Source of the DNA: a virus
DNA: 64,000 nt
Strand: one strand, 5' to 3'
Virus record (IMG/VR): IMGVR_UViG_3300046314_000558
Location: 1 to 64,000 of that record
Both the position numbers and the translations under genes were made by a program. Below the pieces are notes generated by a model. It was not told where the DNA came from. It worked only from the letters and a program-made list of their open reading frames with translations, and made no database searches. Shown piece after piece: positions 7,089-29,803 of this stretch. The number at the start of each line of letters is the position of its first letter. Position 1 is the stretch's first letter.

Positions 7089-7408
7089 AGATATATATAT
7101 TGGGTGACAGCGGTTCCAGCGATATATTACTGCTATGGAATACGTCTTAATTGTGGGGAAAACCGAGCCACAGCCCTTAGCAACCATAAGTAAGAGTTCA
7201 AACAGTGCTAGCCTGATCTGCTGGGTACTTGTGTGTAGATAATCCGACTAGTAGGGTTCGGCCGAACCACGAACGCTGCATGCTGCAACTGTACTTAGCA
7301 GTTTGTTGAACTCTTTCTTATGGGTGTTATGAGTCCTGGTCTCTACTAGGATAACAACTTGATGGTGACCGAATTCTCTAGTCACCGCCCAACCTTTTTA
7401 GCTAATCT

Positions 7409-18402: not shown

Positions 18403-19395
18403 ATGTTCAATCAAAATATCCCTCGCATCGGCTTTGCTTGTAAAATTCAAACCGATCACGATACAGCACATCCTGACTTGAATACCAAGTCTACTACAAT
18501 CAGCTATCTTGCTCGTCAGACTGAAGACGCGGCACGATCAAAGCTGTGGGGTTTGCTTGACCATAACTTGAATGCGTTTTATCGTCAACTCAAGTGGGTT
18601 GCCAAGCAGCCCGTTGAAAAGCGTATGTTCAGAATCACGTCGGATTTATTGCCAGCATATACTCATGATGACTATATGCCGTTCTACTTTCAACCAGATG
18701 TAGTTGCCAAGATTGAAGCACACCTGAGTATGTGCGGTGACTTTGCCCGCGAGCACGATATTCGACTCAGCTTTCACCCCGGCCAGTTCTGCGTACTTGC
18801 CAGCGATAATCCTGGCATTGTTGAAAATTCCATTATGGAATTTGAGTACCATGCCGACCTGATTCGTTACATGGGCTACGGCAAAACATTCCAAGACTTC
18901 AAGTGCAATGTACACGTAGGCGGCAAGCAAGGCCCGGCAGGTATCAAAGCTGCCATGCGCAGGCTTAGCCCAGAAGCACGCAATTGCCTAACAATCGAAA
19001 ACGCCGAGTTTACATGGGGCATTGATGCCAGCCTAGAGCTGGTAGACACTTGTGCGCTAGTGCTTGACATTCACCACCACTGGATTAACTGTGGCGAGTA
19101 CATCGAACCAACTGACTCTCGCTTCAAGCGTTTGTGTGATAGTTGGCGTGGTGTACGTCCAGTTATTCATTACAGTGTTAGTCGTGAAGATGTGCTAGTT
19201 GACCTTGACCCTACTATTCGCCCTGACTTAGCTCTCTTGCTAGACTGCAACTTTACCAAAGCTAAACTTCGCGCTCACAGTGACTACTACTGGAATCAAT
19301 CATGTAATGATTGGGCCTTGACTTTTAGTCCACATGCAGATATAATGTGTGAATCAAAACAAAAGAACTTGGCACGAGATGCCTTACAGCAATAA
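18403..19395 (+). CDS. uvsE: UV-damage endonuclease
   Basis: RIGFAC, RLSFHPGQF, IEN, LDIHHH and AHSD motifs. Confidence 0.9.
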   Translation: MFNQNIPRIGFACKIQTDHDTAHPDLNTKSTTISYLARQTEDAARSKLWGLLDHNLNAFYRQLKWVAKQPVEKRMFRITSDLLPAYTHDDYMPFYFQPDVVAKIEAHLSMCGDFAREHDIRLSFHPGQFCVLASDNPGIVENSIMEFEYHADLIRYMGYGKTFQDFKCNVHVGGKQGPAGIKAAMRRLSPEARNCLTIENAEFTWGIDASLELVDTCALVLDIHHHWINCGEYIEPTDSRFKRLCDSWRGVRPVIHYSVSREDVLVDLDPTIRPDLALLLDCNFTKAKLRAHSDYYWNQSCNDWALTFSPHADIMCESKQKNLARDALQQ

Positions 19396-19399
19396 TATT

Positions 19400-19855
19400 A
19401 TGAACCCCAACAATCCAAACTTACGCGAATTTGCAGATGGCACTAAAAACAGCAGTATTTTTACCACCTCAGCCCCCTACGCAAGCCAGTACCAAGGCCA
19501 AGCTCCTCGCTGGTTATTTGTTTGCAGTGCTGGACTACTTCGCAGCCCTACTGGTGCTGCTCTTGCCATTCAACGTGGCATTAACGCTCGTAGTTGCGGC
19601 AGTAACTTTAACTATGCGCTGATTCCTTGTAGTGCCAACTTGATTAACTGGGCACAAAAGATTGTGTTTGTGAATGGTGAGAACTTGTGGCAGCTAGAGG
19701 ATAACTTCCTTGGTCACCGGGAACTGCTGGAACAGATCGAGCTGAAACAGATTGTGCTAAACATTCCAGACAACTTTGAGTACATGGAACCTCAATTGGT
19801 GCAACTGTTCCATGATGAACTGTTTGTACCATACGGTCCAGTTACTACCAAGTAA
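19400..19855 (+). CDS. LMW protein-tyrosine phosphatase-like protein
   Basis: LFVCSAGLLRS P-loop; LNIPD acid loop. Confidence 0.8.
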   Translation: MNPNNPNLREFADGTKNSSIFTTSAPYASQYQGQAPRWLFVCSAGLLRSPTGAALAIQRGINARSCGSNFNYALIPCSANLINWAQKIVFVNGENLWQLEDNFLGHRELLEQIELKQIVLNIPDNFEYMEPQLVQLFHDELFVPYGPVTTK

Positions 19856-19860
19856 TACTT

Positions 19861-19935
19861 CCGGCCTTAGTATAATGGATAATACAGCGGTCTTCTACAC
19901 CGTGAATATGGGTTCGATTCCTGTAGGCCGGACCA
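19861..19935 (+). tRNA. tRNA-Arg(UCU)
   Basis: Cloverleaf; encoded CCA. Confidence 0.9.
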
Positions 19936-20001
19936 AGATAAATATTGACTTGATTAATTGCCTGAATCAGATTATAATATAGTCTGATTTGGAGAATTAA
20001 T

Positions 20002-20346
20002 ATGAGTAATTATACACCAGACGTTTGGGTTGTCCTAGAGTTCGACCACCCAGACTTGGAAACACCCACACGCAAAGTTTTTGCAGGTTGGTACGGCGGA
20101 TTTGCTGGATCAAATTCATGGCAGCTTAATTCAGGAATTGAAGCCGTGCGTCGTAGTGGCGACTGGTTTGAGTTTGTGGGTTATTCAGGCAGTGTTTACC
20201 GCTGTGGCATGAGCAACTATCACATGAGTAGCCTTATGCAAGGCGTACTAGCCCTTTGGCTTAAACAAGCTGATCAGCGTGGTGATACCCAAATCCGTAT
20301 TTTGACACTTGATGAAGTTCTTGAAATGCCTTATAATATAGTCTGA
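20002..20346 (+). CDS. Conserved phage hypothetical protein
   Basis: YTPD.WV, GWYGG..GS.SWQLNSG pattern; own promoter and SD. Confidence 0.7.
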   Translation: MSNYTPDVWVVLEFDHPDLETPTRKVFAGWYGGFAGSNSWQLNSGIEAVRRSGDWFEFVGYSGSVYRCGMSNYHMSSLMQGVLALWLKQADQRGDTQIRILTLDEVLEMPYNIV

Positions 20347-20358
20347 TTTGGAGATAAT

Positions 20359-20559
20359 ATGGCAGGCTATTCACGCGACTTTTTAATTGATGCTTTCATG
20401 AGCCGTTATATTCACTGCACGAAACTTACTATCGAGCAGTTGGTACGGCTAGAACAAATGGCAAATGATCTTTATGATCGTGTAGGTCGCGACGGCTTTC
20501 GTAGTTATGCCAGCTTAGATGCTGATGCAATTCGAGCGTATAAAAATAGTGTTGACTGA
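20359..20559 (+). CDS. Hypothetical protein
   Basis: Promoter plus GGAG SD. Confidence 0.6.
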   Translation: MAGYSRDFLIDAFMSRYIHCTKLTIEQLVRLEQMANDLYDRVGRDGFRSYASLDADAIRAYKNSVD

Positions 20560-20594
20560 TCGCGGTCTTTACTGTATAATTTGTTCTTTAAAGG

Positions 20595-20882
20595 ATGATT
20601 ATGGCAACCAAGTTTACATACACAGAAACCGAAGTGCAGGAGATTGTACAAAAGTATCAAAGTGGTGTGGAACTTGCGGTGCTTGCCACAGACTATGACA
20701 AAAGCGTAGCAAGTGTACGTATGAAGTTGGTAAAGCTGGGTGTATACCAAAAAGCAACCACCACTTCATCAAGTACCAAGTCTGAGACAGCGGCAAAGTC
20801 AGGCGAATTTCCCAAAACTAAGTCAGGCGTACTAGCCTACTATAAAAGCTGCGTTGATGCAGTTGGTTATAGTGAATTTTAA
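20595..20882 (+). CDS. A2/D3-like HTH protein (paralog 5)
   Basis: YTETE..KYQSG..KSVASVRMKLVKLGVY motif. Confidence 0.65.
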   Translation: MIMATKFTYTETEVQEIVQKYQSGVELAVLATDYDKSVASVRMKLVKLGVYQKATTTSSSTKSETAAKSGEFPKTKSGVLAYYKSCVDAVGYSEF

Positions 20883-21104
20883 TGAGTCCCGCTTATGCTT
20901 ACCCAATACATCCCTAGTATCGGGTAGCAAACTTCGAGCGAGGCGGATGCAAGCTCCGTCACTAAAATAAGCGTGTCGCCGTTGTAGAGACAATGCTTGG
21001 ATATTCTAAGATACAACAGGACTGTCGTCCTGGTTCAAGACTGTATGTGGACACTTTAGGGAGTGTCTCCATATATTAACATATTTTATAGTGTGTTAAT
21101 ATAT

Positions 21105-21270
21105 GGATCGGTAGCTTAACATGGTTAAAGCACAAAGCCGGCATACCTCCCCTTCACTTAAACGCTCTCCTCTGCCGCAAGCACGAAGCAAACAGTGGCC
21201 TGAATTCGAATACATGGTTTCGGGAAGGTATAATTTTAGCAAGCAGGTTCGAGTCCTGCCCGATCCACCA
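21105..21270 (+). ncRNA. tRNA-ended stable RNA with about 110-nt insert replacing the anticodon arm
   Basis: Acceptor GGATCGG/CCGATCC-A-CCA; D-arm; T-arm GCAGG-TTCGAGT-CCTGC. Confidence 0.75.
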
Positions 21271-21410
21271 TAATTTAACACATTAGTGCGAACAATGGCT
21301 CCTATTGCAGCCTAAGTAGTTTAGTGTGTTAAATTATGGGTTTAAAATTTTACACTTGTGGTAAAATTGCTTTTTTGATATAATACATACTCTTTGAAAG
21401 AAACACAACC

Positions 21411-21551
21411 ATGCGAGTTTTTACCAAAATAGATGACAAACTAGCTGTGTGGCAGATTGAAGGTAGTGGCTATGCCGATGCCATTAAGCTGGTTCGCGAT
21501 GAACTTGGTGTTGGTCACAAAGCAGTTATCTTGGCCCTTGTAAAATATTGA
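21411..21551 (+). CDS. Hypothetical 46-aa protein
   Basis: Hand-translated ORF downstream of a promoter. Confidence 0.5.
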   Translation: MRVFTKIDDKLAVWQIEGSGYADAIKLVRDELGVGHKAVILALVKY

Positions 21552-21827
21552 CTTGATCTTACAGTTATTTTGCTGTATAATTAACACTTATTCAGAGATA
21601 GTTCCGACACTAACATAGGACTTCCTGATAGACCAGAACAATGCAAAATTGTGTTAGCCAATTAGTGGAACGCTGTTAGCGCAGTGGGTACATAGGGTAA
21701 AGCATGGCACTGGTTGGAACCTCAGATCAGCAGCTCTGAGCTATCAAAAAGCTACTAATTTTGGATCTTGCTTCCACCGACAGATCATGATATCGGGGAG
21801 ATTTCGCACTATTCTAAAAAGTGTTAT

Positions 21828-21906
21828 CCGAGTGTGGGAAAGTCTGGTTTAATCCGCCTGCTTTGGGAGCAGGAAATCGAAGGTTCGAATCCTTCCACTC
21901 GGACCA
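21828..21906 (+). tRNA. tRNA-Pro(UGG)
   Basis: Cloverleaf; CCA. Confidence 0.92.
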
Positions 21907-22105
21907 CCGTGACCATATTGTTGTAACTTTTGCTAGATTCCGGTTCAGTCTCGGAGCTTTATAGATGGAAGTGGTTGTACTTTCTAGATAAGTGCAGCCT
22001 ATAGTCTGAGCTTAGTATATAGCTAGAAGTAATTAATCTTTGTAAAACTAAGCCGATGCCTTAGCGGGCATGGTAGTAAACAGAAGTTACAACAATATGA
22101 ATTAT

Positions 22106-22189
22106 GCGTTGGTGGTGGAATGGTATACACGCTGGTCTTAGAAGCCAGTGCCGCAAGGATTGAGAGTTCGAGTCTCTCTCGACGCACCA
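22106..22189 (+). tRNA. tRNA-Leu(UAG)
   Basis: Cloverleaf; long variable arm; CCA. Confidence 0.92.
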
Positions 22190-22195
22190 CAATTT

Positions 22196-22273
22196 GGGGA
22201 ATGGGTCTGCTTGGGGTGGACACCTGCTTTGCACGCAGGACACAGATCGGTTCGAATCCGATATTCTCCACCA
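22196..22273 (+). tRNA. tRNA-Ala(UGC)
   Basis: Cloverleaf; G3:U70; CCA. Confidence 0.9.
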
Positions 22274-22289
22274 AATTTTAAAAATTATT

Positions 22290-22415
22290 ATGAAAACACG
22301 AAAACCTAGGAATCACGTAGCCTTAGCTTTGATGAAGCGTGGCGGCAGTGGTTCACATAAAAAATCGCACAAGCAATTGCGCGGAAAACTCAACCGAGAA
22401 GGTTGGGACGGCTAA
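22290..22415 (+). CDS. 41-aa very basic peptide
   Basis: MKTRKPRNHVALALMKRGGSGSHKKS...; fills the gap between two tRNAs. Confidence 0.5.
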   Translation: MKTRKPRNHVALALMKRGGSGSHKKSHKQLRGKLNREGWDG

Positions 22416-22416
22416 T

Positions 22417-22491
22417 GGACGTATAACTTAACGGCTAAAGTAGTGGGCTTTTAACCTACAAATCAGAGTTCGATTCTCTGTGCGTCTACCA
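22417..22491 (+). tRNA. tRNA-Lys(UUU)
   Basis: Cloverleaf; CCA. Confidence 0.9.
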
Positions 22492-22574
22492 TATAAAAAC
22501 ACATTCCCCTTGGTTAGGGCTGTCCGGACAGGGTGGTTCAATTCCGCTATAGTGTGTTTTTATATGGTATTTAT

Positions 22575-22666
22575 GGCTCCATAGTTTAATGGTAGAACAG
22601 CGGATTTATATCCCGTATGCAACAGATAATTGGTTAGTCTGGGTTCGAATCCCGGTGGAGCTACCA
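22575..22666 (+). tRNA. tRNA-Ile(UAU) with long variable arm
   Basis: Anticodon loop TT-TAT-AT; about 22-nt variable region; CCA. Confidence 0.75.
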
Positions 22667-22675
22667 AACAAATAT

Positions 22676-22763
22676 GGAATACTGGCCGACCGGTTAAGGC
22701 AACAGATTGCTAATCTGTCATTCAGCAATGGGTGAGTAGGTTCGATTCCTACGTATTCCGCCA
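22676..22763 (+). tRNA. tRNA-Ser(GCU)
   Basis: Cloverleaf; long variable arm; G73; CCA. Confidence 0.92.
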
Positions 22764-22768
22764 AATAT

Positions 22769-22843
22769 GCAGCAGGTAGTGTAATGGAAGCACCCGAGTC
22801 TGTGAAACTCGTAGACTGAGATCGAAACTCAACTGTCTGCCCA
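22769..22843 (+). tRNA. tRNA-His(GUG)
   Basis: Anticodon arm CGAGT-CTGTGAA-ACTCG; slightly irregular acceptor stem. Confidence 0.8.
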
Positions 22844-22844
22844 T

Positions 22845-22920
22845 GCCGATGTAGCTCAGGCGGTAGAGCAGCGGATTGAAAATCCGTGTGTCACTGGTTC
22901 GACCCCAGTCTTCGGCACCA
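22845..22920 (+). tRNA. tRNA-Phe(GAA)
   Basis: Cloverleaf; CCA. Confidence 0.92.
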
Positions 22921-22936
22921 CCTATAAACAAACAAT

Positions 22937-23011
22937 GCTCCCGTCGTCTACTGGCTAGGACGCTGCCCTTTCAAGGCGGAAAAGACGGATCGAAACCGTT
23001 CGGGAGTACCA
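22937..23011 (+). tRNA. tRNA-Glu(UUC)
   Basis: Cloverleaf; CCA. Confidence 0.9.
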
Positions 23012-23016
23012 ACTTC

Positions 23017-23092
23017 ATCCTATTCATCTAGAGGCCAAGGATAGCGGGTTTTCATCCCGTTCACATCGGTTCGAATCCGGTATAGGATGCCA
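23017..23092 (+). tRNA. tRNA-Glu(UUC), second divergent copy
   Basis: Cloverleaf; CCA. Confidence 0.88.
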
Positions 23093-23097
23093 AATTT

Positions 23098-23172
23098 ACT
23101 GGGGTAGCTCAGCGGCAGAGCACTCGCTTGATAAGCGATAGGTCGAGGTCTCGGAATCCTCCCTCAGTACCA
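23098..23172 (+). tRNA. tRNA-Ile(GAU)
   Basis: Cloverleaf with atypical T-loop; CCA. Confidence 0.85.
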
Positions 23173-23272
23173 GATAACTTCTCCCGAAGTTACAGTCTAG
23201 AACACTCGGACTTTAAAGGGTTGTGGGCGTGGGTGTAAGCCCCACATTTTACACAACACACAGGAGACAACA

Positions 23273-23506
23273 ATGTCCAATAAATCACCATTTGAAATTC
23301 GTCTTGAAATTCTCAAGATGACTGCTGAACTTATGCAAGCAGAGTACGAATCTAACGTAGAATTTGCACAAGAAGTCTTTGAAAGTATCAAAGATAAAAC
23401 TGCACTGACCACTGCACAACTAGACAAATTCATGCCAAAGCCTTTTGACTTTGAAGACATGGTAGCTAAAAGCAAGCAGTTCTACGAGTTCGTAAATGCT
23501 AAGTGA
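23273..23506 (+). CDS. Conserved phage hypothetical protein
   Basis: SPFEIRLEILKM...FYEFV; AGGAG SD. Confidence 0.7.
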   Translation: MSNKSPFEIRLEILKMTAELMQAEYESNVEFAQEVFESIKDKTALTTAQLDKFMPKPFDFEDMVAKSKQFYEFVNAK

Positions 23507-23655
23507 ACTAATGAAAAAGCTACAAGATGTGTTCCGACCATACACATTTGAAGACTTTATACAAGATCAGAACCCACAAACATGGTCTGAACTAAAAGAA
23601 TTAGAGCGTACTTGGTATCGTGCCAAAAACGACTTTAACAAAATGTTTTAAATAT

Positions 23656-23724
23656 CGCGGGAAATCAGGTGATAGGCTAGTCTCATAAGCTCGGCCCAGA
23701 GGTTCGAATCCTTACCCGCAACCA
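23656..23724 (+). tRNA. Initiator-like tRNA-Met(CAU) with truncated D-arm
   Basis: CGCGGG...CCCGCA-A-CCA with C1:A72 mismatch; CTCATAA loop; 69 nt. Confidence 0.7.
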
Positions 23725-24129
23725 AATTAGCCTTCCAGCACTTCTGCAGCCGCTTAGTGAACTGGTAAAGATGGCATTGGCTCGCCACCATATTCTTTGA
23801 CAATAGATACGATTGCTTATCTGAGGTAAAACTCGCCGGTGTATCCCGTCTATGTGTGGATATAAGCACCACGCTACATTGTCAACTGCAGGCTAGTAAT
23901 CACTGTGCACAACAACCTGCATCCGTTGAAGCGAAAACTAGATGGGCTGCTCTCACGGGGTTAAAGTTATCCTGACACAAAAATAACTATGTATCTGTTT
24001 ACTTAAGGCTAAAGACTATGCCCCCTTGTGGAACTGAAACAGCGTCAATGTCTTCAGTGACAACGAAATGTCACGCCGGAGAATGTAACCGGCAACTATT
24101 TATTCGGCCAGAGAAGTTCTCTGGCTTTT

Positions 24130-24204
24130 GGTTTTGTAGCACAGCGGTAGTGCACGGTCTTCATACGGCGTTGGTCGTGAGTTCAAATCCCACCAAAACC
24201 ACCA
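24130..24204 (+). tRNA. tRNA-Met/Ile2(CAU)
   Basis: Cloverleaf with irregular anticodon stem; CCA. Confidence 0.78.
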
Positions 24205-24219
24205 AACAAGGATTATAAA

Positions 24220-24402
24220 ATGAGCGATGGCGGAAAAGGCTCAAAGCGCAGACCTCAAGGCATACCAGATGATGTACTTGCAGAAGCCTGGGCACGTATC
24301 TTTGCTAAAAATCCAGATAACACTGGTTTAAGCAAATCAGAATATCCCGAATTGTTAAGCCACGAAAGTGGTTTAACAGAATCCCACGACCCTAGCCAGT
24401 AG
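24220..24402 (+). CDS. Small hypothetical protein
   Basis: MSDGGKGSKRRP...WARIF pattern; AGGA SD. Confidence 0.6.
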   Translation: MSDGGKGSKRRPQGIPDDVLAEAWARIFAKNPDNTGLSKSEYPELLSHESGLTESHDPSQ

Positions 24403-24435
24403 TCAGTCTGGTGTTAGAAAAGTGGGGCAACACAT

Positions 24436-24510
24436 ATGTCCCTAGTGTAATTGGCAGCACGTTAGTCTCCAAAACTATTAGTCACGGTTCGAGTCCGTGG
24501 GGGCGTGCCA
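24436..24510 (+). tRNA. tRNA-Trp(CCA)
   Basis: Cloverleaf; CCA. Confidence 0.88.
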
Positions 24511-24561
24511 AATTTTTGATTTGAATATATTTTCCCAATCGGGTATAATTATTCTTTAAAC

Positions 24562-24646
24562 GGAGATTCCGCCGCAATGGTGTGGCAGGGGATTGTAAAT
24601 CCTCCGACTTAGGTCATGACAGGTTCGATCCCTGTAGTCTCCACCA
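24562..24646 (+). tRNA. tRNA-Tyr(GUA)
   Basis: Cloverleaf; long variable arm; CCA. Confidence 0.92.
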
Positions 24647-24717
24647 ATTTTTGCAAACGGCTTTGACGCCTGGCGATAGCTGTTCAGGGGAAGTCTCAGT
24701 TGTTTGCTTTATATTAC

Positions 24718-24802
24718 GCCCCTATGGTGAAATCCTGGTAAACACAAGGCACTTAAAATGCCTCGCTTCGGCTTCCCGGTTCGAGTCCGGGTGGGGGTAC
24801 CA
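24718..24802 (+). tRNA. tRNA-Leu(UAA)
   Basis: Cloverleaf; CCA. Confidence 0.92.
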
Positions 24803-24811
24803 AAAACAAAT

Positions 24812-24891
24812 GGCTAATGGGACTGCTTGGTGTGGTCGCCGCACTGTCACTGCGGATATTCAGGTCGGTTCGATTCCGATATTGGTCGCCA
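24812..24891 (+). tRNA. tRNA-Asp(GUC)
   Basis: Cloverleaf; CCA. Confidence 0.9.
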
Positions 24892-24966
24892 TAAAAATAG
24901 GTGAAAAGGGTAGCTCCCCCGATACTGCCAACTCAGTATCTAGCCTAATATCTTAGTTGGAAGATT

Positions 24967-25596
24967 ATGCAGACATTAAAAGAAGCAATGCTGGAAGCGT
25001 TCCAGTATTTAGAAAATACTTATAACCCTAAATGGACTTCTGGTAAAGGTTCAAAAGAAAAACTTATAGACGCTTTCTCACAAAACGAGTTACCAAAGCA
25101 CAAATTTTTAGGGTTTGCTGGCTCAGACGGATTACGTCATGCTTTTGGTAGGGCTTTAACAGGCCATAATAAACCCAAAAGCACTAAGTGGGAAATATGG
25201 TTACTTAGAAACATAAACAAGTTTCAGTGCACTAAGTGCAACTTAGTGCATGCTTATAATCATAAATATGATACTAATGTTAATCTATGTAAAGACTGTA
25301 ACAGTATAAAGTGCTCCGATACTAGAGACTCTAAAAGACAATATGTATATGATGTACTGAGTTCAAGCTCTGGTTGTGTAGACTGTGGCGAAAAAGACCC
25401 AATTGTATTAGAATTTGACCATAGAGATCCAAGTACAAAATCCTCTAACATAGGCGATAGTTACGGTAAGTCAATAGAGTACCTAAAAGAAGAAATATTA
25501 AAATGTGATATAGTTTGTGCTAACTGTCACAGAAAACGAACAGCAAAAATGTTTAACTACTATAAGTACGTAAAACAGCTATCAAACCTGCCTTAG
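24967..25596 (+). CDS. HNH homing endonuclease
   Basis: CVDCGEKDPIVLEFDHRD...CANCHRKRT; AT-rich insert within the tRNA cluster. Confidence 0.85.
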   Translation: MQTLKEAMLEAFQYLENTYNPKWTSGKGSKEKLIDAFSQNELPKHKFLGFAGSDGLRHAFGRALTGHNKPKSTKWEIWLLRNINKFQCTKCNLVHAYNHKYDTNVNLCKDCNSIKCSDTRDSKRQYVYDVLSSSSGCVDCGEKDPIVLEFDHRDPSTKSSNIGDSYGKSIEYLKEEILKCDIVCANCHRKRTAKMFNYYKYVKQLSNLP

Positions 25597-25774
25597 GTCC
25601 GTGTCGTTCCGGTTAGAGCGTCCGTGACCCATCCGTTGGATACGATAAGTCCAAGCTGGAACCGTAACCAGCATATTTAATACTAGCGAGAATGCGCTAT
25701 AGTGTGTAGGTGGTATCCTTCTCTGCCACTGAAGCTCACTCGGGGATTGCGCACCGGGCGCTAGTATTAAATAT

Positions 25775-25853
25775 TCCGTAGAATCCGAGCTAGGTGCACG
25801 GACTTGACTGTTAATCAATGACTAGACTGGTTCGAATCCAGTATACGGAGCCA
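25775..25853 (+). tRNA. tRNA-Asn(GUU)
   Basis: Cloverleaf; CCA. Confidence 0.88.
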
Positions 25854-25859
25854 CATTGT

Positions 25860-25933
25860 TGGGGGTTAGTGAAATGGTATCACACGGGATTTTGATTCCC
25901 TTGTCACAGGTTCGATTCCTGTACCCTCTGCCA
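25860..25933 (+). tRNA. tRNA-Gln(UUG)
   Basis: Cloverleaf; CCA. Confidence 0.9.
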
Positions 25934-25935
25934 AC

Positions 25936-26012
25936 GGGTCTATAGCACAACTGGATAATGCACCGGTTTACGAAGCCGTGAAGTGAGAGTTCAAATCTTT
26001 CTAGACCCACCA
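25936..26012 (+). tRNA. tRNA-Arg(ACG)
   Basis: Cloverleaf; CCA. Confidence 0.9.
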
Positions 26013-26024
26013 ACAAAGACTACT

Positions 26025-26495
26025 ATGCGTCAATTTAACATCAACGAAGTAAAAGACTATATTCGTAATTCTAGTCCAGAAACTAAGATTTATCTTGGTG
26101 CGGATTCGGAGCGTGTTAAAATTGGCGACAAATGGTATGCAGACTATACCCTGGCTGTTGTAGTACACATTGACGGCAATCATGGTTGCAAGATTTTTGG
26201 TGATGTACAGCGCGAACGCGACTGGGATCAAAAAGCCAATAAGCCCTCAATGCGACTAATGCAAGAAGTCTACAAAGTCAGTGACCTGTTTCACGAATTG
26301 AGTGATGTGCTAGAAGATCGACACGTTGAAGTCCACTTGGACATTAATCCCAGTGAGCGATATAAGAGTTCAGCAGTTGTACAACAAGCTGTTGGATATA
26401 TAAAAGGCACCTGTAACATTGACGCACAAGTCAAACCCCGAGCTTTTGCAGCAAGCTATGCTGCTGATCGTTTAAAATTTGTACTGGCTAACTAA
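26025..26495 (+). CDS. RNase H-like YkuK/DUF458-family protein
   Basis: IYLGADS, EVHLDIN and AASYAADR motifs. Confidence 0.8.
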   Translation: MRQFNINEVKDYIRNSSPETKIYLGADSERVKIGDKWYADYTLAVVVHIDGNHGCKIFGDVQRERDWDQKANKPSMRLMQEVYKVSDLFHELSDVLEDRHVEVHLDINPSERYKSSAVVQQAVGYIKGTCNIDAQVKPRAFAASYAADRLKFVLAN

Positions 26496-26496
26496 A

Positions 26497-26700
26497 ATGA
26501 CTGACCGATTCGACCTAGAACAAAACATCATGCAATGCTGGAATGTTTGTGATGACATTCAGCTGTACTTAGACATGCACGACAACATGGACGAAGATCA
26601 GCGCATGAACTACTTGATTGGACTCAAGCAAATGTATCAGTTGAAATTTGAGCGTTGCTGGGGTACTTTTGAGACAGTAGTACGTACTCGTCAAATTTAA
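26497..26700 (+). CDS. Hypothetical protein
   Basis: DRFDLEQNIMQCW pattern; coupled to upstream gene. Confidence 0.65.
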   Translation: MTDRFDLEQNIMQCWNVCDDIQLYLDMHDNMDEDQRMNYLIGLKQMYQLKFERCWGTFETVVRTRQI

Positions 26701-26701
26701 T

Positions 26702-26778
26702 GTCGGTGTGTAGCCGAATGGCTAGGCCACGGATTGCAAATCCGTTTTATGCAGGTTCGAGTCCTGTCACCGACTCCA
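26702..26778 (+). tRNA. tRNA-Cys(GCA)
   Basis: Cloverleaf; U73; CCA. Confidence 0.92.
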
Positions 26779-26858
26779 GTTTAGCCAAATTCCCTGATGG
26801 TCAAAAATACGGGCTGCTCAAGGGCCAACGCCAAGAGCATAAGGTTACAGTTGGAAAA

Positions 26859-26932
26859 GCCCTTGTAGTATATTGGTATTACAGTTGCCTTGTAAGCATC
26901 AAAAGAAGGTTCGATTCCTTACTGGGGCACCA
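26859..26932 (+). tRNA. tRNA-Thr(UGU)
   Basis: Cloverleaf; CCA. Confidence 0.9.
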
Positions 26933-27020
26933 TATTTTAGCACTTTAGAAGCCCAACACCAGTGCACTGGTACGCGAAGTGTGGTTACGACGCTTGTCCG
27001 TTAGAGTGCTAAAATATGGT

Positions 27021-27419
27021 TGTATGAAGCAGACCCAAAAGAGTTCGACACGCGGGGGCAGTGCCCGCCAGGTCCACCATTAGGAGATTTAATGAATTTA
27101 TTGTGCGGATACCATGCAAAGTCAACAGAGACTTGTCAGTGGGTAATAGAAAACTACGATCGTCCAACTGATAATATCACGGTTAGAGATTGGGTAGCTG
27201 CGTGCAAAGAATACTTAAAGTCTGTTAATGATGGGCCTGACACAGGATCGACCGGGCTAAGAGTAGCAAAGTAGACAACTCGGCAATGTGAAAGCCGTAG
27301 GATTGGGGATTCCCGGTCGTAGCAACAAAACAAAAATAAACGCAAACGATACACAGTTCGCATTAGCAGCCTAAACGCCGCTTAGGGTTATGCCAGTTCC
27401 TCGTAACAGAATACTGGCA
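27021..27419 (+). ncRNA. ssrA: Circularly permuted two-piece tmRNA
   Basis: Acceptor piece ends CAGGTCC-A-CCA at 27079; coding piece starts GGGCCTG at 27233 (G3:U70); tag ANDTQFALAA-stop at 27342-27374. Confidence 0.9.
27092..27274 (+). CDS. 60-aa ORF in the tmRNA intervening segment
   Basis: AGGAGA SD immediately after the tmRNA CCA; ATG at 27092. Confidence 0.5.
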   Translation: MNLLCGYHAKSTETCQWVIENYDRPTDNITVRDWVAACKEYLKSVNDGPDTGSTGLRVAK

Positions 27420-27522
27420 CTATATTTTAATACTCTGGTCAGCACTGTGAGAAGCGCAGATCGACAAGACTAGAACGTGGTTTGAATCCAAACTAGAGTA
27501 TTAAAATATAGTAAAGGAACTT

Positions 27523-28122
27523 ATGCGCTCTAACCTTCTCGACCCTAAATTGTTTCAATCTGACAAATTTACTAACAGCTTTTCAAAGCCAGTTGCACAA
27601 GTTCATGAGTTTTATCTAACCGGCGCTATTGAAGATGCCGAGAACTACATTGAGTGGTTTGACACAATTCGCAACGCTTCAGCTGTAGATACCATTCGTA
27701 TTTACATTAACAGCCCTGGTGGTGACCTATTTACCACACTACAATTCTTGCGTGTAATGGCCGAAAGCGAAGCCAACATTGTTACCAGTGTTGAAGGTGC
27801 TTGCATGAGTGCAGCAACCATGATCTTCTTGCACGGTCATCAGCAAGAAGTTACACCACACAGCTTATTTATGTTTCACGACTATTCGTCAGGAACATTT
27901 GGCAAGGGTGGTGAGCAGTACGATCAGATTCAGTTTGAACGTGGTTGGTCGCGCAAGTTCATGAGTGAAGTATACGCAGACTTTTTAACCCCTGCTGAAA
28001 TCGAAAGCATGATGCACAACAAAGACATTTGGATGGGGTCGGAAGAAGTTGTAGAACGCTTAACTGCACTGCAAGCCAAGCGCGAAGCTGAAGTAGCAGC
28101 CCAAGAAGACGCACAAGAATAA
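27523..28122 (+). CDS. ClpP-like protease subunit
   Basis: IYINSPGG, ACMSAA (catalytic Ser), FMFH and DIWM motifs. Confidence 0.88.
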   Translation: MRSNLLDPKLFQSDKFTNSFSKPVAQVHEFYLTGAIEDAENYIEWFDTIRNASAVDTIRIYINSPGGDLFTTLQFLRVMAESEANIVTSVEGACMSAATMIFLHGHQQEVTPHSLFMFHDYSSGTFGKGGEQYDQIQFERGWSRKFMSEVYADFLTPAEIESMMHNKDIWMGSEEVVERLTALQAKREAEVAAQEDAQE

Positions 28123-28127
28123 AACGT

Positions 28128-28219
28128 GGGTGGTAATGCAGCGGGGTTGGTCCTGCGACTGGCCTTGAAAACCAGGTTCTCGGAAACGGGATGGGGTTCG
28201 ACTCCTCTGCCACCCGCCA
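28128..28219 (+). tRNA. tRNA-Ser(UGA)
   Basis: Cloverleaf; long variable arm; CCA. Confidence 0.9.
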
Positions 28220-28307
28220 TAAGTAAACCTACTCAGTGAGGCACATCCTTTAAACCAAGCTGGTTTGAGTCCGGCGGCTAAAAGTAGGCTTTCTTATGGG
28301 GTTCAAC

Positions 28308-28481
28308 ATGGAAACACTAGTTTACAGATTACGCAAACGCGCAGAAATACGCCGACAAATTCCCGGCAGAAAGTCTGTTCAAGAAAACAAACCAGATCGT
28401 ATAGCAGACTTATTAGAAGAAGCTGCTGCCAGACTTGAACAGTTTGAGGCACAGCAACTTCAAGCCAAGCAACCCACATGA
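28308..28481 (+). CDS. Hypothetical protein
   Basis: LVYRLRKRAEIRRQIP...DRIADLLEEAA pattern. Confidence 0.6.
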   Translation: METLVYRLRKRAEIRRQIPGRKSVQENKPDRIADLLEEAAARLEQFEAQQLQAKQPT

Positions 28482-28635
28482 AAAAGTTGTGGAGATTGTG
28501 GGCAAATGCCCTCGGCGCCAAAGCCGGAAAAACTAACAGCGAAGCAGACATGGTAGCCATTATTCGAACACTGATAGTACTCAGCTACATAGGCACTAAC
28601 TGCTTTATTGTTGCAGGTGTGTGGAGACATTGGTA

Positions 28636-28944
28636 ATGGCTATTGGATTCTCAAAGTTACGTTCACCGCTACTAGACCTAACAGACAAGATCACAGTAGG
28701 CAAGCTAAGTGGCTGCAGAGTATGTGATGTAGTAGAAGACCACTACGAATACTTGATCTGGGCTGAAAAAACCGGATTGTTTAAGTTTACAAAAATAGTC
28801 ACAGAAACCATACAAGAACACGCTGGGTATAAGGCTCAGCAACGATTCATCGAAGAAGAAATTAAGCCTTGGCTAGAAGATGATTTAGTCAAACGCGAAC
28901 GCGAAATGATTCGCAGTATCTTGGATGAAGACGTACCTTTTTAA
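28636..28944 (+). CDS. Small protein with a GK-x-x-G/YL-x-W (ExoX-C/DUF3820-like) motif and SSB-like DEDVPF tail
   Basis: GKLSGCRVCDVVEDHYEYLIW; C-terminal DEDVPF. Confidence 0.6.
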   Translation: MAIGFSKLRSPLLDLTDKITVGKLSGCRVCDVVEDHYEYLIWAEKTGLFKFTKIVTETIQEHAGYKAQQRFIEEEIKPWLEDDLVKREREMIRSILDEDVPF

Positions 28945-29019
28945 GCAGGATTAATTCAGTGGTAGAATGTCTCGTTGCCAACGAGAATGTCAGGAGTTCG
29001 ACCCTCCTATCCTGCTCCA
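28945..29019 (+). tRNA. tRNA-Gly(GCC)
   Basis: Cloverleaf; CCA. Confidence 0.92.
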
Positions 29020-29025
29020 ACTTAT

Positions 29026-29253
29026 ATGTATAAAGTAATAGACAACGAAGGTTTCTTAAGAGGCCGATCAGAAGATTTAGCCGTAGCCCTAGAAATGGCC
29101 AAGTATGTAGATGAGTTTGTAGTTATCACAAACGGTACTATAGAAATTGTAGGTATATTTGGTGTAGATTCCGTGGAAAATGGAACGTGCCCAGATGGTA
29201 TTGCCTACGACTGGAACAAAGCATCACGAATTGGTGCCGAAAAACGAAAATAA
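29026..29253 (+). CDS. Hypothetical protein
   Basis: ORF between tRNAs. Confidence 0.6.
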   Translation: MYKVIDNEGFLRGRSEDLAVALEMAKYVDEFVVITNGTIEIVGIFGVDSVENGTCPDGIAYDWNKASRIGAEKRK

Positions 29254-29257
29254 TAGT

Positions 29258-29331
29258 GCGGGGTTAGTTTAGTGGCAAAACGCTATCCTTCCAAGTTAGA
29301 GTTGCGAGTTCGATTCTCGCACCCCGCTCCA
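29258..29331 (+). tRNA. tRNA-Gly(UCC)
   Basis: Cloverleaf; CCA. Confidence 0.9.
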
Positions 29332-29344
29332 TTAAAGGTTATTT

Positions 29345-29650
29345 ATGACAAATAAAACACAACAGTATATTCAAGCCCTTGATAGTATAATCAAGGCAGC
29401 AAAAAATATCAAACGTGGCGATAGCGTTAGCTGGAATTCCAGTGGCGGTACTGCACGTGGAAAAGTAACCAAAATTATTACCTCGGGCAGTGAAGCTGTA
29501 CCTGGTAGTAGTTTTACTATTAGTGGTACAGCAGATGATCCTGGCGCACTAATCCGTTTATATAGACCCAATTCAGATGGCAAGTACGAAGCCACAGATA
29601 CCATTGTTGGTCACAAAACAAGTACACTAAAAAAGATAGATCCATTATAA
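29345..29650 (+). CDS. DUF2945/Tudor-like domain protein
   Basis: GDSVSWNSSGGTARGKV...GHK.STL pattern. Confidence 0.6.
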   Translation: MTNKTQQYIQALDSIIKAAKNIKRGDSVSWNSSGGTARGKVTKIITSGSEAVPGSSFTISGTADDPGALIRLYRPNSDGKYEATDTIVGHKTSTLKKIDPL

Positions 29651-29651
29651 T

Positions 29652-29726
29652 GCCTTGTTAACTCAGCGGTAGAGTGCCTCCTTTACACGGAGTAGGTCGG
29701 CGGTTCGATCCCGTCACAAGGTACCA
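29652..29726 (+). tRNA. tRNA-Val(UAC)
   Basis: Cloverleaf; CCA. Confidence 0.92.
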
Positions 29727-29803
29727 AATTTTAAACTTGAAACTAATCCCCGAATACAGTATAATAAGTACTGTTTCGGGGATTATTTATTTATGGGAAA
29801 ACA

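What the first reader, a model, noticed from the sequence alone, without database searches (positions are those of the whole stretch)
21069..28299. Family of small RNAs enclosed by long AT-rich (C)CATA...TATG(G)-type stems throughout the tRNA cluster
Seen: long terminal helices (mostly 15-20 bp) of similar style at 21069-21106, 21268-21339, 21914-22099, 22487-22569, 23789-24020, 25673-25774, 26929-27020, 27419-27512 and 28217-28299, plus one at 7183-7325 in the hammerhead locus. Several start inside the CCA of the preceding tRNA. The enclosed segments (a few nt to about 200 nt) are unrelated and structured, and three carry T-arm-like GGTTYRAnTCC. Pairs of stems flank the tmRNA and the tRNA-like RNA at 21105 exactly. 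Inference: RNase III-type processing stems that mature neighbouring RNAs and release a set of uncharacterised cargo sRNAs, or tRNA-3'-targeting miniature inverted-repeat elements.
Basis: partly seen in the sequence, partly recalled or inferred. Interest (0 to 1): 0.76.

Follow-up and report, generated by a model that had tools for sequence, protein, structure and literature searches.

The report
Clamp-stem RNA cassettes between phage tRNAs
The tRNA/tmRNA operon of this uncultured freshwater T5-like phage is interleaved with small RNAs, each closed by a roughly 20-bp AU-rich stem that starts on the CCA end of the preceding RNA; they resemble phage T5's unexplained "stable RNAs", but their stem sequence is conserved and their inserts are swapped between sites and phages.

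Summary
23789-24020 is not a credible member.

Region 21.0-28.4 kb has 7 stems of at least 16 bp, against 0.05 expected from shuffles. About 15 related viral contigs carry the same hairpins at orthologous sites. In 104 distinct stems, internal mismatches are G.U 67 against A.C 16. That points to selection on the RNA of the tRNA strand, not on a DNA palindrome.

The stem has a sequence consensus, CCAUAU-WWW-A-RYAYAYU, while the insert ("cargo") does not:
- One site (after tRNA-Lys) has an empty stem or any of four to five unrelated cargos.
- The same cargo sits before the tmRNA in some phages and after it in others.
- One exact 17-nt arm finds 58 complete hairpins with at least 30 cargo types in IMG/VR, and 0 of 120 hits in prokaryotic genomes.

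Cargos are real RNAs. The 25673-25774 family shows compensatory changes at 20 of 29 pairs.

The closest known relatives are T5 RNAIII, RNAIV and RNA2H, which are built the same way. The most likely mechanism, inferred and not shown, is excision by host RNase III from the polycistronic tRNA precursor. This would free the neighbouring CCA ends and release stem-capped sRNAs. Cassettes are probably exchanged by recombination within the shared stems.

This scan has found the same class before on other DNA.

The parts
7178..7329 (+). Clamp-stem RNA outside the tRNA cluster (stem 7184-7201 / 7306-7323, 104-nt cargo). It belongs to the stem subtype CCAUAAGUAAG/CUUUCUUAUGG, which has a conserved U.U mismatch and is shared with 28217-28299.
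   Evidence: the stem comparison was read.
21068..21107 (+). Empty clamp stem (16-18 bp, 4-8 nt loop) directly 5' of the tRNA-like RNA. Relatives carry 29-84 nt cargos of at least 4 kinds at this site.
   Evidence: A metatranscriptome contig has 64 extra letters in the loop.
21105..21270 (+). Context: a tRNA-like RNA with a roughly 90-110 nt insert, flanked on both sides by clamp stems.
   Evidence: Rfam tRNA model, 37.9 bits. RNA contig depth of about 210 against about 15 on coding neighbours.
21268..21339 (+). Clamp-stem RNA that starts on the CCA of the tRNA-like RNA. Its 34-36 nt cargo (GAACAAUGGCUCCUAUUGCAGCCUAAGUA) lies at other sites in relatives: after tRNA-Lys in L003 and before the tRNA-like RNA in L002.
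21914..22099 (+). Clamp-stem RNA after tRNA-Pro (19-bp stem, 148-nt cargo), ending 6 nt before tRNA-Leu.
   Evidence: Orthologues have covarying stems and two cargo variants.
22487..22569 (+). Clamp-stem RNA that starts on the A-CCA of tRNA-Lys and ends 5 nt before tRNA-Ile. The cargo is a miniature cloverleaf: a D-like hairpin with GG, a 4-bp mini hairpin, and a T-arm GGUGG-UUCAAUU-CCGCU.
   Evidence: At the same site, relatives have an empty stem or four to five other cargos.
23789..24020 (+). NOT a confirmed member. The proposed helix is weak and not conserved. The region nevertheless yields a very abundant RNA contig in a lake metatranscriptome.
   Evidence: no stem found. (depth 2212 over 23811-24024).
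25673..25774 (+). Clamp-stem RNA directly 5' of a tRNA-like gene (25775-25853). It belongs to a conserved RNA family with an invariant GCUAUAGUGUGUAG, a hairpin with a CU-rich loop, and a hairpin CYNGG-GAUKGCG-CCRGG.
   Evidence: 12 sequences; 20 of 29 pairs have compensatory changes.
26929..27020 (+). Clamp-stem RNA that starts on the A-CCA of tRNA-Thr. Its 3' arm overlaps the first 3 nt of the permuted tmRNA.
   Evidence: Relatives have 7 different cargos at this site.
27018..27421 (+). Context: a circularly permuted two-piece tmRNA (tag ANDTQFALAA) flanked by two clamp stems.
   Evidence: RF04321, 97.8 bits.
27419..27512 (+). Clamp-stem RNA after the tmRNA (21-bp stem starting ACUAUAU, no CCA). 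The cargo carries a T-loop-like GGUUUGAAUCC. The same cargo lies before the tmRNA in L010.
28217..28299 (+). Clamp-stem RNA that starts on the CCA of a tRNA-Ser/Sec-like gene (28129-28219). The stem has a conserved 1x1 mismatch. The cargo has the T-arm GCUGG-UUUGAGU-CCGGC.
   Evidence: five orthologues with the same cargo and differing stems.

Best explanation
These are clamp-stem RNA cassettes of a phage tRNA operon.

**Proposed mechanism.**
1. The tRNAs, tRNA-like RNAs, tmRNA and cassettes are transcribed together from a few promoters.
2. Each cassette folds locally into a 16-24 bp AU-rich helix with consensus CCAUAU-WWW-A-RYAYAYU. The outer pairs of that helix are the CCA of the upstream RNA. 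Its 3' arm ends 0-6 nt before the next tRNA.
3. Host RNase III cuts the helix. The phage encodes no RNase III of its own.
4. The cut leaves the upstream tRNA with a short trailer, which exonucleases trim back to CCA. It also frees the 5' leader of the downstream tRNA for RNase P.
5. The cut releases a small RNA capped by the inner half of the stem. The tip of that RNA (the cargo) is the functional part. Examples are tRNA-elbow mimics and an sRNA with a CU-rich, anti-Shine-Dalgarno-like loop.

Because all stems share nearly the same sequence, recombination within them moves cargos between sites and between co-infecting phages.

**Shown here:** the elements exist and are enriched; selection acts at the RNA level; there is a stem consensus; the cargo is modular; one cargo family covaries; the hairpins are phage-specific; T5's stable RNAs have the same architecture.

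**Inferred:** RNase III cleavage, accumulation of the released RNAs, the exchange mechanism, and what the cargos do.
For: **Real and enriched.** 7 stems against 0.05 in shuffles. They recur at orthologous sites in about 15 relatives.

**RNA-level selection.** With mismatch-neutral detection of 104 distinct stems, G.U is 67 against A.C 16, p about 1e-8. Stems covary around a constant cargo.

**A cut in double-stranded RNA is needed.** The CCA of tRNA-Lys, tRNA-Thr, the tRNA-like RNA and the Ser-like tRNA is inside the helix. The elements lie between promoters, and none of the stems is scored as a terminator.

**Fit to RNase III.**
- Helix length matches the roughly 22-bp RNase III valley.
- A G/C island at stem positions 11-14 sits in an otherwise 90% A/U helix. 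This resembles the in vivo rule that the 2 bp between the staggered cuts usually include a G-C pair (PMC6212723).

**Precedent.**
- T5's tRNA region carries annotated 'stable RNAs with unknown functions'.
- RNAIII, RNAIV and RNA2H are closed by long stems that run past their annotated ends.
- The RNAIII stem starts in the GCCA of RNAI and ends in the first bases of tRNA-His. Its annotated ends leave a 2-nt 3' overhang.
- RNase III takes part in T4 tRNA maturation (McClain 1979, as cited in PMC4810235).

**Cargo is functional RNA.** In the 25673 family, 20 of 29 pairs have compensatory changes and there is an invariant 14-mer. T-loop motifs occur in three cargos.

**Exchange.** The same stem holds different cargo, and the same cargo occurs at different sites. 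One exact 17-nt arm closes 58 hairpins with at least 30 cargo clusters in IMG/VR, and none of 120 hits in prokaryotic genomes.
Against: - No RNA ends were seen. The only RNA data are assembled contigs from relatives. They cannot show cuts, and they give no clear signal for any confirmed cassette.
- RNase III alone does not explain why the stem sequence, not just the pairing, is nearly identical across phages with different tRNAs.
- Several stems in the window are 16-19 bp, shorter than the optimal two helical turns.
- In T5 the 3' end of RNAIII coincides with the RNase P site of tRNA-His, so the 2-nt stagger could be a coincidence. The T5 ends are taken from a GenBank annotation whose experimental basis I could not read.
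- The G.U count includes orthologous stems, which are not independent of one another.
Confidence: 0.55

Rival explanations
1. Selfish spacer cassettes, like the intervening sequences (IVS) of 23S rRNA. On this view the hairpins are horizontally traded insertions with no benefit to the phage. The stem exists only so that the insert can be cut out and discarded without harming the flanking tRNAs, and the excised RNA is then degraded.
For: - Cassettes are present or absent at orthologous tRNA junctions: 1-9 nt spacers against 50-450 nt fills.
- Empty stems exist (window 21068; L006 after tRNA-Lys).
- Cargos hop between sites.
- Arms are identical across unrelated phages.
- IVS elements are stem-closed, excised by RNase III, horizontally acquired, and rapidly degraded (PMC4990558).
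Against: - Cargo families are conserved over divergent phages, with invariant loops and compensatory pairs. T-loop modules recur. Neither is expected for junk.
- T5's counterparts accumulate as stable RNAs, according to their annotation.
- This rival shares the excision step with the best explanation and differs only on whether the cargo has a function.
Confidence: 0.2
2. Y-RNA-like or tRNA-mimic ligands. On this view the long stem is a protein-binding platform, as the Y RNA stem is for Ro60/Rsr. The cargo would tether an effector or act as a decoy for tRNA-directed host enzymes or defences.
For: - Relatives L003, L005, L007, L013, L014 and L019 have a 2.3-3.1 kb (L005: 7.8 kb) insertion between tRNA-Met and tRNA-Trp in the same cluster. 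In L007 it encodes a Ro60 orthologue with TROVE and vWA_Ro60 domains.
- That gene is flanked by long-stem RNAs and by a YrlA-like RNA (L007:5443-5548, 35 bits, E 2e-5).
- Y RNAs next to phage Ro60 genes are known (PMC4201824).
- Three window cargos carry T-arms, and one is a mini-cloverleaf.
Against: - The window's genome has no TROVE gene.
- The Ro60-linked RNAs of the relatives carry a different motif (GAAACAGUUACUUC...CUGUUUCG) and different stems. That motif is absent from the window's cluster.
- No window element hits the YrlA model at E up to 5.
- Most cargos have no tRNA-like part.
- A perfect AU-rich helix lacks the bulged helix that Ro60 recognises (general knowledge, not tested here).
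Confidence: 0.08
3. Leader-trailer processing stems. On this view the functional helix forms between the 3' arm of one hairpin and the 5' arm of the next, enclosing the tmRNA or the tRNA-like RNA. This would resemble the RNase III stems that enclose 16S and 23S rRNA.
For: The arms are cross-compatible. 21089-21106 pairs with 21268-21285 at 83%. The 3' arm of 26929-27020 can pair with the 5' arm of 27419-27512 at -17.7 kcal/mol.
Against: - There is no co-evolution. Same-genome pairs across the tmRNA average -12.5 kcal/mol, against -10.9 +/- 4.9 for pairs taken from different genomes.
- The local hairpins are far more stable, at about -26 kcal/mol, and they form first during transcription.
- Most hairpins stand between ordinary tRNAs, which need no such stem.
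Confidence: 0.07
4. DNA-level palindromes. On this view the repeats are targets of the homing endonucleases in the cluster, recombination hotspots, or MITE terminal repeats, with no role as RNA.
For: An HNH-type ORF (24967-25596) lies directly upstream of 25673-25774. T5's tRNA region is likewise studded with HNH endonuclease genes. The cassettes are mobile.
Against: - The strong G.U over A.C asymmetry on the transcribed strand is not expected for DNA palindromes.
- All elements lie on the tRNA strand.
- Filled and empty junctions show no target-site duplication.
- No protein is consistently linked within about 10 kb of 58 hairpins.
Confidence: 0.05

Closest known systems
Phage T5 stable RNAs of the tRNA gene region (RNAIII, RNAIV, RNA2H; also the tRNA-like RNA1, RNA2 and RNA3), annotated in NC_005859 as 'stable RNA with unknown functions'
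   Same: - They lie on the tRNA strand, between tRNA genes of a T5-type phage.
- They are closed by a roughly 20-bp AU-rich terminal helix.
- The RNAIII helix starts in the GCCA of the preceding RNA (RNAI) and ends in the first bases of tRNA-His.
- A further unannotated T5 hairpin (record 35533-35427) has CAUAU...AUAUG arms that abut tRNA-Tyr.
- Their function is unknown.
   Different: - No sequence similarity was detected (megablast).
- Here the stems follow one consensus at many sites. They are shared by many uncultured phages and enclose dozens of unrelated cargos, including empty stems. T5's few stems differ from one another.
- Accumulation as stable RNA is not shown here.
RNase III processing stems: rRNA operon stems, T7 early-mRNA R sites, and T4 tRNA-cluster precursors
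   Same: Long intramolecular double-stranded RNA in a polycistronic precursor that separates mature RNAs. The helix length is compatible with the enzyme (PMC6212723; PMC4810235).
   Different: - Cleavage is untested here.
- These helices are closed locally and enclose their own cargo, rather than enclosing the mature RNA.
- Their sequence is conserved.
Intervening sequences (IVS) of bacterial 23S rRNA
   Same: Stem-closed inserts with variable interiors. They are excised by RNase III without re-ligation, and are sporadically distributed and horizontally acquired (PMC4990558).
   Different: - IVS elements sit inside rRNA helices and their RNA is degraded.
- These elements sit between tRNAs, start on CCA ends, and at least some cargos are conserved structured RNAs.
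Bacterial and phage Y RNAs (YrlA, Rfam RF02553) with Ro60/Rsr
   Same: A terminal stem formed by the 5' and 3' ends plus a tRNA-like module. Relatives of this phage carry Ro60 and a YrlA-like RNA in the same tRNA cluster (PMC4201824).
   Different: This genome has no Ro60, no element hits the YrlA model, and the stem motif differs.
Self-cleaving ribozymes placed 3' of phage tRNAs (HDV-like 'theta' ribozymes, from my own knowledge) and hammerheads
   Same: An RNA element abutting a phage tRNA 3' end that could define that end.
   Different: No ribozyme family matches any cargo in the window or in three relatives. A simple perfect helix has no catalytic core.

Membership tests
T5-type stable RNAs of phage tRNA clusters (RNAIII/RNAIV/RNA2H type) | Encoded on the tRNA strand, between tRNA genes of a phage tRNA cluster | tested here: met
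   window; T5.
T5-type stable RNAs of phage tRNA clusters (RNAIII/RNAIV/RNA2H type) | 5' and 3' ends paired in a long terminal helix that abuts the neighbouring CCA end and the next tRNA's 5' end | tested here: met
   window; T5 RNAIII, RNAIV, RNA2H.
T5-type stable RNAs of phage tRNA clusters (RNAIII/RNAIV/RNA2H type) | Accumulates as a discrete stable RNA in infected cells | not testable with these tools
   Only assembled contigs of relatives were available. They give no usable signal for the confirmed cassettes.
T5-type stable RNAs of phage tRNA clusters (RNAIII/RNAIV/RNA2H type) | Sequence homology to the T5 RNAs | tested here: not met
   Megablast of 21000-28400 against 50,697 phage records found only tRNA-sized matches and none in T5. 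No covariance-model comparison was made.
RNase III substrates | About 20 bp or more of mostly uninterrupted intramolecular double-stranded RNA | tested here: met
   16-21 bp in the window and up to 29 bp in relatives.
RNase III substrates | Staggered double cut leaving 2-nt 3' overhangs, dependent on rnc | not testable with these tools
   No read-level RNA data. In T5, the annotated RNAIII and RNA2H ends fit this pattern.
RNase III substrates | Paired positions between the cut sites that usually include a G-C pair | tested here: inconclusive
   There is a G/C island at stem positions 11-14, but the cut sites are unknown.
Y RNA / YrlA | Encoded next to a Ro60 (TROVE) gene | tested here: not met
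   No TROVE match in the 99.9-kb genome. This is met only in relatives.
Y RNA / YrlA | Match to the YrlA covariance model or the Ro60-binding helix | tested here: not met
   No YrlA hit in 19500-31500 at E up to 5. The relatives' Ro60-linked motif is absent from the cluster.
MITE / transposon | Terminal inverted repeats with a target-site duplication and a near-constant interior | tested here: not met
   Inverted repeats are present. However, filled and empty junctions show no duplication, and interiors fall into dozens of unrelated clusters.
MITE / transposon | Selection acts on DNA, so mismatch types should be symmetric | tested here: not met
   G.U 67 against A.C 16.
23S rRNA intervening sequences | Inserted in a 23S rRNA helix | tested here: not met
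   No rRNA gene is involved. The elements lie between tRNA genes.
Self-cleaving ribozymes (hammerhead, HDV-like, twister, pistol, hatchet) | Match to a ribozyme covariance model | tested here: not met
   cmscan at permissive E-values on the window and on three relatives found none.

The most novel reading that the evidence does not exclude
The shared clamp stem may be a universal frame for a horizontally traded library of phage small RNAs. In effect this would be a cassette system for RNAs rather than genes. The conserved stem sequence would serve both as the excision signal and as the homology that lets any cargo be dropped behind any tRNA. The cargos seen so far include tRNA-elbow mimics, sRNAs with anti-Shine-Dalgarno-like loops, and, in relatives, Y-RNA-like RNAs with Ro60. 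On this reading they would be accessory effectors that act on host translation, RNA quality control or tRNA-directed defences.
Probability: 0.25. Interest if true: 0.8.

Novelty: new variant of a known kind. Interest (0 to 1): 0.55.

Why it matters
T4 and T5 have carried "stable RNAs of unknown function" in their tRNA clusters since the 1970s and 1980s. This phage clade offers a larger and more uniform set, with comparative signal: a constant stem, interchangeable conserved cargos, and empty sites. That turns the old puzzle into testable questions about who cuts the stem, which cargos accumulate, and what they bind.

If RNase III is the processing enzyme, maturation of several phage tRNAs and of the tmRNA would depend on a host double-stranded-RNA nuclease.

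If the cargos are effectors, phage tRNA operons would be a reservoir of dozens to hundreds of undescribed sRNA families. The 25673-25774 family alone is a new, well-supported RNA family that is absent from Rfam.

Tried and rejected
- **Rfam.** Gathering and permissive thresholds on the window and three relatives found no family for any cargo, no ribozyme, and no hammerhead in 1-19500.
- **Phage-encoded enzymes.** The genome has no RNase III (PF14622), RtcB (PF01139) or Ro60 (PF05731).
- **RNaseH_like/DUF458 ORF (25983-26495) as a dedicated nuclease.**
  - It is conserved in the cluster of all relatives. It also sits inside the tRNA cluster of the unrelated Stenotrophomonas phage DLP_6.
  - However, DLP_6 has no clamp stems.
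  - The gene is near only 9 of 58 hairpins elsewhere.
  - It is not homologous to T5.069, and sequence search finds no solved structure.
- **Trans helix enclosing the tmRNA.** No co-evolution was found.
- **Antisense targets of the cargos in the phage genome.** Only chance-level matches appeared. The one exception is the shared motif GCUAUAGUGUG between 25695-25707 and 22545-22557.
- **Metatranscriptome and RNA-seq contigs (runs X20-X23).** They come from relatives at 90-95% identity. They cannot show ends, and they gave no usable cover of the confirmed cassettes.
- **Pattern scans.** One hairpin pattern sent to IMG/VR was mis-specified by one base and found nothing.
- **Literature.** Full-text searches found no description of these hairpins and no paper on the T5 stable RNAs.

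Full report
**Context**

The window is the first 64 kb of a 99.9-kb IMG/VR virus record that is about 94% complete. DNA runs from freshwater metagenomes hold it. No cultured phage is close: the ClpP-like protein in the cluster has under 40% identity to any GenBank phage.

Region 19.8-31 kb carries 25 tRNA genes found by ARAGORN and a circularly permuted tmRNA at 27018-27374/27421. It also holds further tRNA-like genes at 21105-21267, 23658-23727, 25775-25850 and 28129-28214. All of these lie on the + strand. Near-consensus promoters lie at about 20552, 21553 and 24521, and few terminators are predicted. The region is therefore transcribed in multi-gene units.

Three inverted-repeat scans recover long stems at eight of the ten listed places. 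The scans were the tool's own, my exact-seed scan, and a scan that tolerates G.U pairs. RNAfold closes each of these elements with that helix.

28217-28299 has one U.U mismatch and so escapes the strict scans. It folds as claimed, and four orthologues carry the same cargo with different stem sequences.

The density is far above chance. There are 7 stems of at least 16 bp with at most 1 mismatch in 7.4 kb. 200 dinucleotide-preserving shuffles give a mean of 0.05 and a maximum of 1. The remaining 92 kb holds 8.

The T-loop motif GGTTYRANTCC occurs in the cargos at 22535, 27479 and 28262. The window holds 20 matches in all, mostly true tRNAs, against 0.2 expected by chance.

The exception is 23789-24020. 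Its helix is 4+6 bp and interrupted, and no scan finds it. Its 5' arm lies in a block shared only with L007, whereas its 3' arm lies in a block shared with L002, L006 and L010. I do not count it as a member.

**Relatives**

A protein-anchored search brought in 18 loci, of which about 15 have the tRNA cluster. They carry the same style of hairpin at the same places: before and after the tRNA-like RNA, after tRNA-Pro, after tRNA-Lys, between tRNA-Thr and the tmRNA, after the tmRNA, and after the Ser-like tRNA.

I then detected stems with all mismatches penalised equally and counted the internal non-Watson-Crick pairs in 104 distinct stems. G.U was 67 and A.C was 16 (binomial p about 1e-8). Transitions in a DNA palindrome should give both types equally, so the helices are maintained in the RNA of the tRNA strand. 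The caveat is that orthologous stems are not independent.

**A constant stem**

I aligned 57 distinct 5' arms on their CCA. This gives a position-specific consensus:
- positions 1-5: CCAUA
- positions 6-9: about 90% A/U
- position 10: A or U in all 57 arms
- positions 11-17: R-Y-A-Y-A-Y-U, commonly GCACAUU

The last U pairs as a U.G wobble (CAYAUUA / UAGUGUG). G+C is about 58-60% at positions 11, 12 and 14, against 11% or less at positions 4-10.

A second stem subtype, CCAUAAGUAAG / CUUUCUUAUGG, has a conserved 1x1 mismatch. It closes both 28217-28299 and 7184-7323.

**A variable cargo**

All-against-all comparison of the enclosed segments gives dozens of unrelated clusters. Stem and cargo are uncoupled in several ways:
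- **After tRNA-Lys.** The window and L002 have the same stem (UACCAUAUAAAAACACAUU) but unrelated cargos of 45 and 75 nt. L003 and L007 share another stem, with cargos of 35 and 76 nt. L013 carries a fifth cargo, which lies after tRNA-Phe in L003, L006 and L007. L006 has the stem with a 3-nt loop.
- **Between tRNA-Thr and the tmRNA.** Seven cargo types occur at this site.
- **Cargo of the window's 27419-27512.** It lies after the tmRNA in the window and L002, but before the tmRNA in L010.
- **Two other cargos.** They make the same switch between these two sites.
- **Cargo of 21268-21339.** It lies after tRNA-Lys in L003.
- **Cargo of 25673-25774.** It lies between tRNA-Leu and tRNA-Asp in L014, and next to tRNA-Asp or tRNA-Cys in more distant contigs.

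In these moves the inner 10-14 bp of the stem travel with the cargo. The outer 6-7 bp stay with the site: ACCAUAU after a tRNA, and ACUAUAU or CAUAAAU after the tmRNA. The breakpoints therefore lie within the AU-rich middle of the helix.

Whole elements are also present or absent. Many tRNA junctions are 1-9 nt in some relatives and 50-450 nt in others. The filled junctions show no target-site duplication.

**Breadth and specificity**

One exact arm, ACCATATWWWAGCACAT, occurs 105 times in IMG/VR.
- 58 of these have the matching 3' arm within 300 nt.
- At least 38 of the 58 directly follow a T-arm, acceptor strand and CCA.
- The 58 enclose at least 30 cargo clusters.

The same arm gave 120 listed hits in prokaryotic genomes, and none has a partner arm. 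The hairpin is therefore a phage feature. Its sequence, not only its pairing, is shared by phages with different tRNAs. No protein-coding gene is consistently present within about 10 kb of these hairpins.

**Cargos are real RNAs**

The family of 25673-25774 has 12 distinct members, six of them from contigs outside the close relatives. RNAalifold predicts 29 pairs, and 20 of them show compensatory changes. The family comprises:
- the clamp stem, which here covaries freely;
- an invariant single-stranded GCUAUAGUGUGUAG;
- a variable hairpin whose loop is CU-rich in 11 of 12 members (UCCUU, CCUCCUU), resembling an anti-Shine-Dalgarno sequence (this is a lead only);
- a hairpin CYNGG-GAUKGCG-CCRGG.

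It matches no Rfam family.

The cargo of 22487-22569 is a miniature cloverleaf. It has a D-like hairpin with GG, a 4-bp stub in place of the anticodon arm, and a T-arm with the loop UUCAAUU, all set on the 19-bp stem in place of an acceptor stem.

**Closest known**

T5's GenBank record annotates eight 'stable RNAs with unknown functions' or 'tRNA-like stable RNAs' among its tRNA genes. Folding them with their flanks shows that RNAIII, RNAIV and RNA2H are closed by long helices that continue beyond the annotated ends.
- The RNAIII helix is GCCACAAUUGAAAAUUCGUA / UGCGAGUUUUCAAUUGUGGC.
- It begins in the GCCA end of RNAI and finishes in the first bases of tRNA-His.
- The annotated RNAIII 5' end pairs with the third base from its 3' end. 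That leaves a 2-nt 3' overhang, the mark of RNase III. RNA2H shows the same.
- One caveat: the RNAIII 3' end is also the RNase P site of tRNA-His.

A further unannotated T5 hairpin with CAUAU...AUAUG arms abuts tRNA-Tyr. A review cites McClain (1979) for a role of RNase III in T4 tRNA synthesis (PMC4810235).

The window's elements are therefore the same kind of object as T5's stable RNAs. What differs is that the stem is uniform, the family is widespread, and the cargo is modular.

**Mechanism**

Where the CCA of a tRNA is paired inside a roughly 20-bp helix, single-strand nucleases and 3' exonucleases cannot reach it. A double-strand-specific cut is the simplest way to mature that tRNA. The phage encodes no RNase III, so the host enzyme is the candidate.

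Helix length and the central G/C island agree with the in vivo rules for E. coli RNase III (PMC6212723). A cut near positions 9-13 would have three effects:
- it would leave a trailer of about 6-10 nt to be trimmed back to CCA;
- it would release a cargo RNA capped by 7-10 bp;
- it would free the next tRNA's leader for RNase P.

All of this is inference. No RNA ends were available.

Cargo exchange is most simply explained by recombination, or by template switching within the near-identical arms. That is also inferred.

**Rivals**

The elements could be selfish spacers, like the RNase III-excised intervening sequences of 23S rRNA (PMC4990558). This fits their mobility, but not the conservation of the cargos.

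A Y-RNA reading was worth testing. Six relatives have a large insertion between tRNA-Met and tRNA-Trp. In L007 it encodes a Ro60 orthologue with TROVE and vWA_Ro60 domains (L007:5577-6887). It sits next to a YrlA-like RNA (35 bits) and long-stem RNAs that share GAAACAGUUACUUC. Against this, the window's genome lacks Ro60, lacks that motif in the cluster, and gives no YrlA hit.

A helix enclosing the tmRNA, formed between neighbouring hairpins, shows no co-evolution. It is also much weaker than the local hairpins.

A purely DNA-level role is contradicted by the G.U bias.

**RNA evidence**

Only assembled contigs from relatives at 90-95% identity could be laid on the window. In the one run recorded as a metatranscriptome:
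- a 239-nt contig over 23811-24024 has depth 2212;
- a contig over the tRNA-like RNA at 21092-21261 has depth 210;
- contigs on coding neighbours have depth of about 15.

This suggests abundant stable RNAs from those two places. It says nothing about cuts in the stems.

**Earlier findings of this scan**

Follow-up reports on other DNA describe the same class. They give the same closest known relatives (T5 and T4 stable RNAs) and suggest IVS-like excision. I had reached the T5 comparison and the constant-stem, variable-cargo picture before reading them. The IVS analogy is theirs, and I checked its source.

**Verdict**

This is a real, RNA-level, phage-specific family, and a new variant of the T5-type stable RNAs. 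Its mechanism is plausible but untested, and what the cargos do is unknown.

Noticed in passing
L007:5577-6887 (also L003, L005, L013, L014, L019, between tRNA-Met and tRNA-Trp): Relatives carry a Ro60 orthologue (TROVE + vWA_Ro60, 436 aa) inside the tRNA cluster. It is flanked by a YrlA-like RNA (L007:5443-5548, T-arm then D-arm, 35 bits) and by long-stem RNAs sharing GAAACAGUUACUUC...CUGUUUCG (L007:5246-5435, 6947-7049). The window's phage lacks the whole module: its tRNA-Met to tRNA-Trp spacer is 231 nt.
   Followed up: partly
window 23811-24044: A relative's version of this region forms a 239-nt contig of depth 2212 in a lake metatranscriptome, against about 15 on coding neighbours. It looks like a very abundant structured RNA of unknown kind, upstream of tRNA-Met. 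It has no Rfam match.
   Followed up: partly
window 25983-26495: An RNaseH_like (PF04308/DUF458, YkuK-type) ORF is conserved between tRNA-Arg(acg) and tRNA-Cys in all relatives. A 55%-identical homologue also sits inside the tRNA cluster of the unrelated Stenotrophomonas phage DLP_6. It may act on tRNA or RNA, but it is not linked to the clamp stems.
   Followed up: partly
window 25689-25758 and 11 homologues (alignment A1): The hairpin loop of this conserved cargo family is CU-rich (UCCUU, CCUCCUU) in 11 of 12 members, resembling the anti-Shine-Dalgarno end of 16S rRNA. It could be an sRNA that sequesters Shine-Dalgarno sequences.
   Followed up: no
window 21089, 21322, 22550, 25700: The octamer UAGUGUGU occurs four times on the + strand within 4.6 kb. 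Three copies are in 3' arms of clamp stems and one is the unpaired invariant motif of the 25673 cargo. The only other two copies in the 64-kb window lie on the other strand.
   Followed up: partly
window 7095-8049: Another note on this genome claims a hammerhead ribozyme here. cmscan over 1-19500 at E up to 1 reports no hammerhead family. A long insertion in stem III could hide it from the models.
   Followed up: no
L007:1210-1335, L013:1330-1452, L015:5260-5362, L015:5692-5815: Several cargos share a pseudoknot-like motif. Helix 1 (YUGACR...YGUCAR) is interleaved with helix 2 (for example CCAUG...CAUGG, CCAAG...CUUGG or UACGU...ACGUA), and the two flank a conserved UGCGAAA. Helix 2 covaries. 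The motif matches no Rfam family.
   Followed up: no
window 24967-25596: A 209-aa ORF has an HNH-type motif (EFDHRD...CANCH) but no Pfam hit at E below 0.01. It lies directly upstream of clamp 25673-25774. T5 likewise scatters HNH endonuclease genes through its tRNA region.
   Followed up: no
Relatives, stems ACCAUAUAAAAGCACAU / GUGUGCUUCUAUAUGGU (many IMG/VR contigs): A recurrent A.C mismatch lies at stem position 8 in many independent contigs, the same position as the conserved U.U mismatch of the CCAUAAGUAAG subtype. It may be a functional non-Watson-Crick pair.
   Followed up: no
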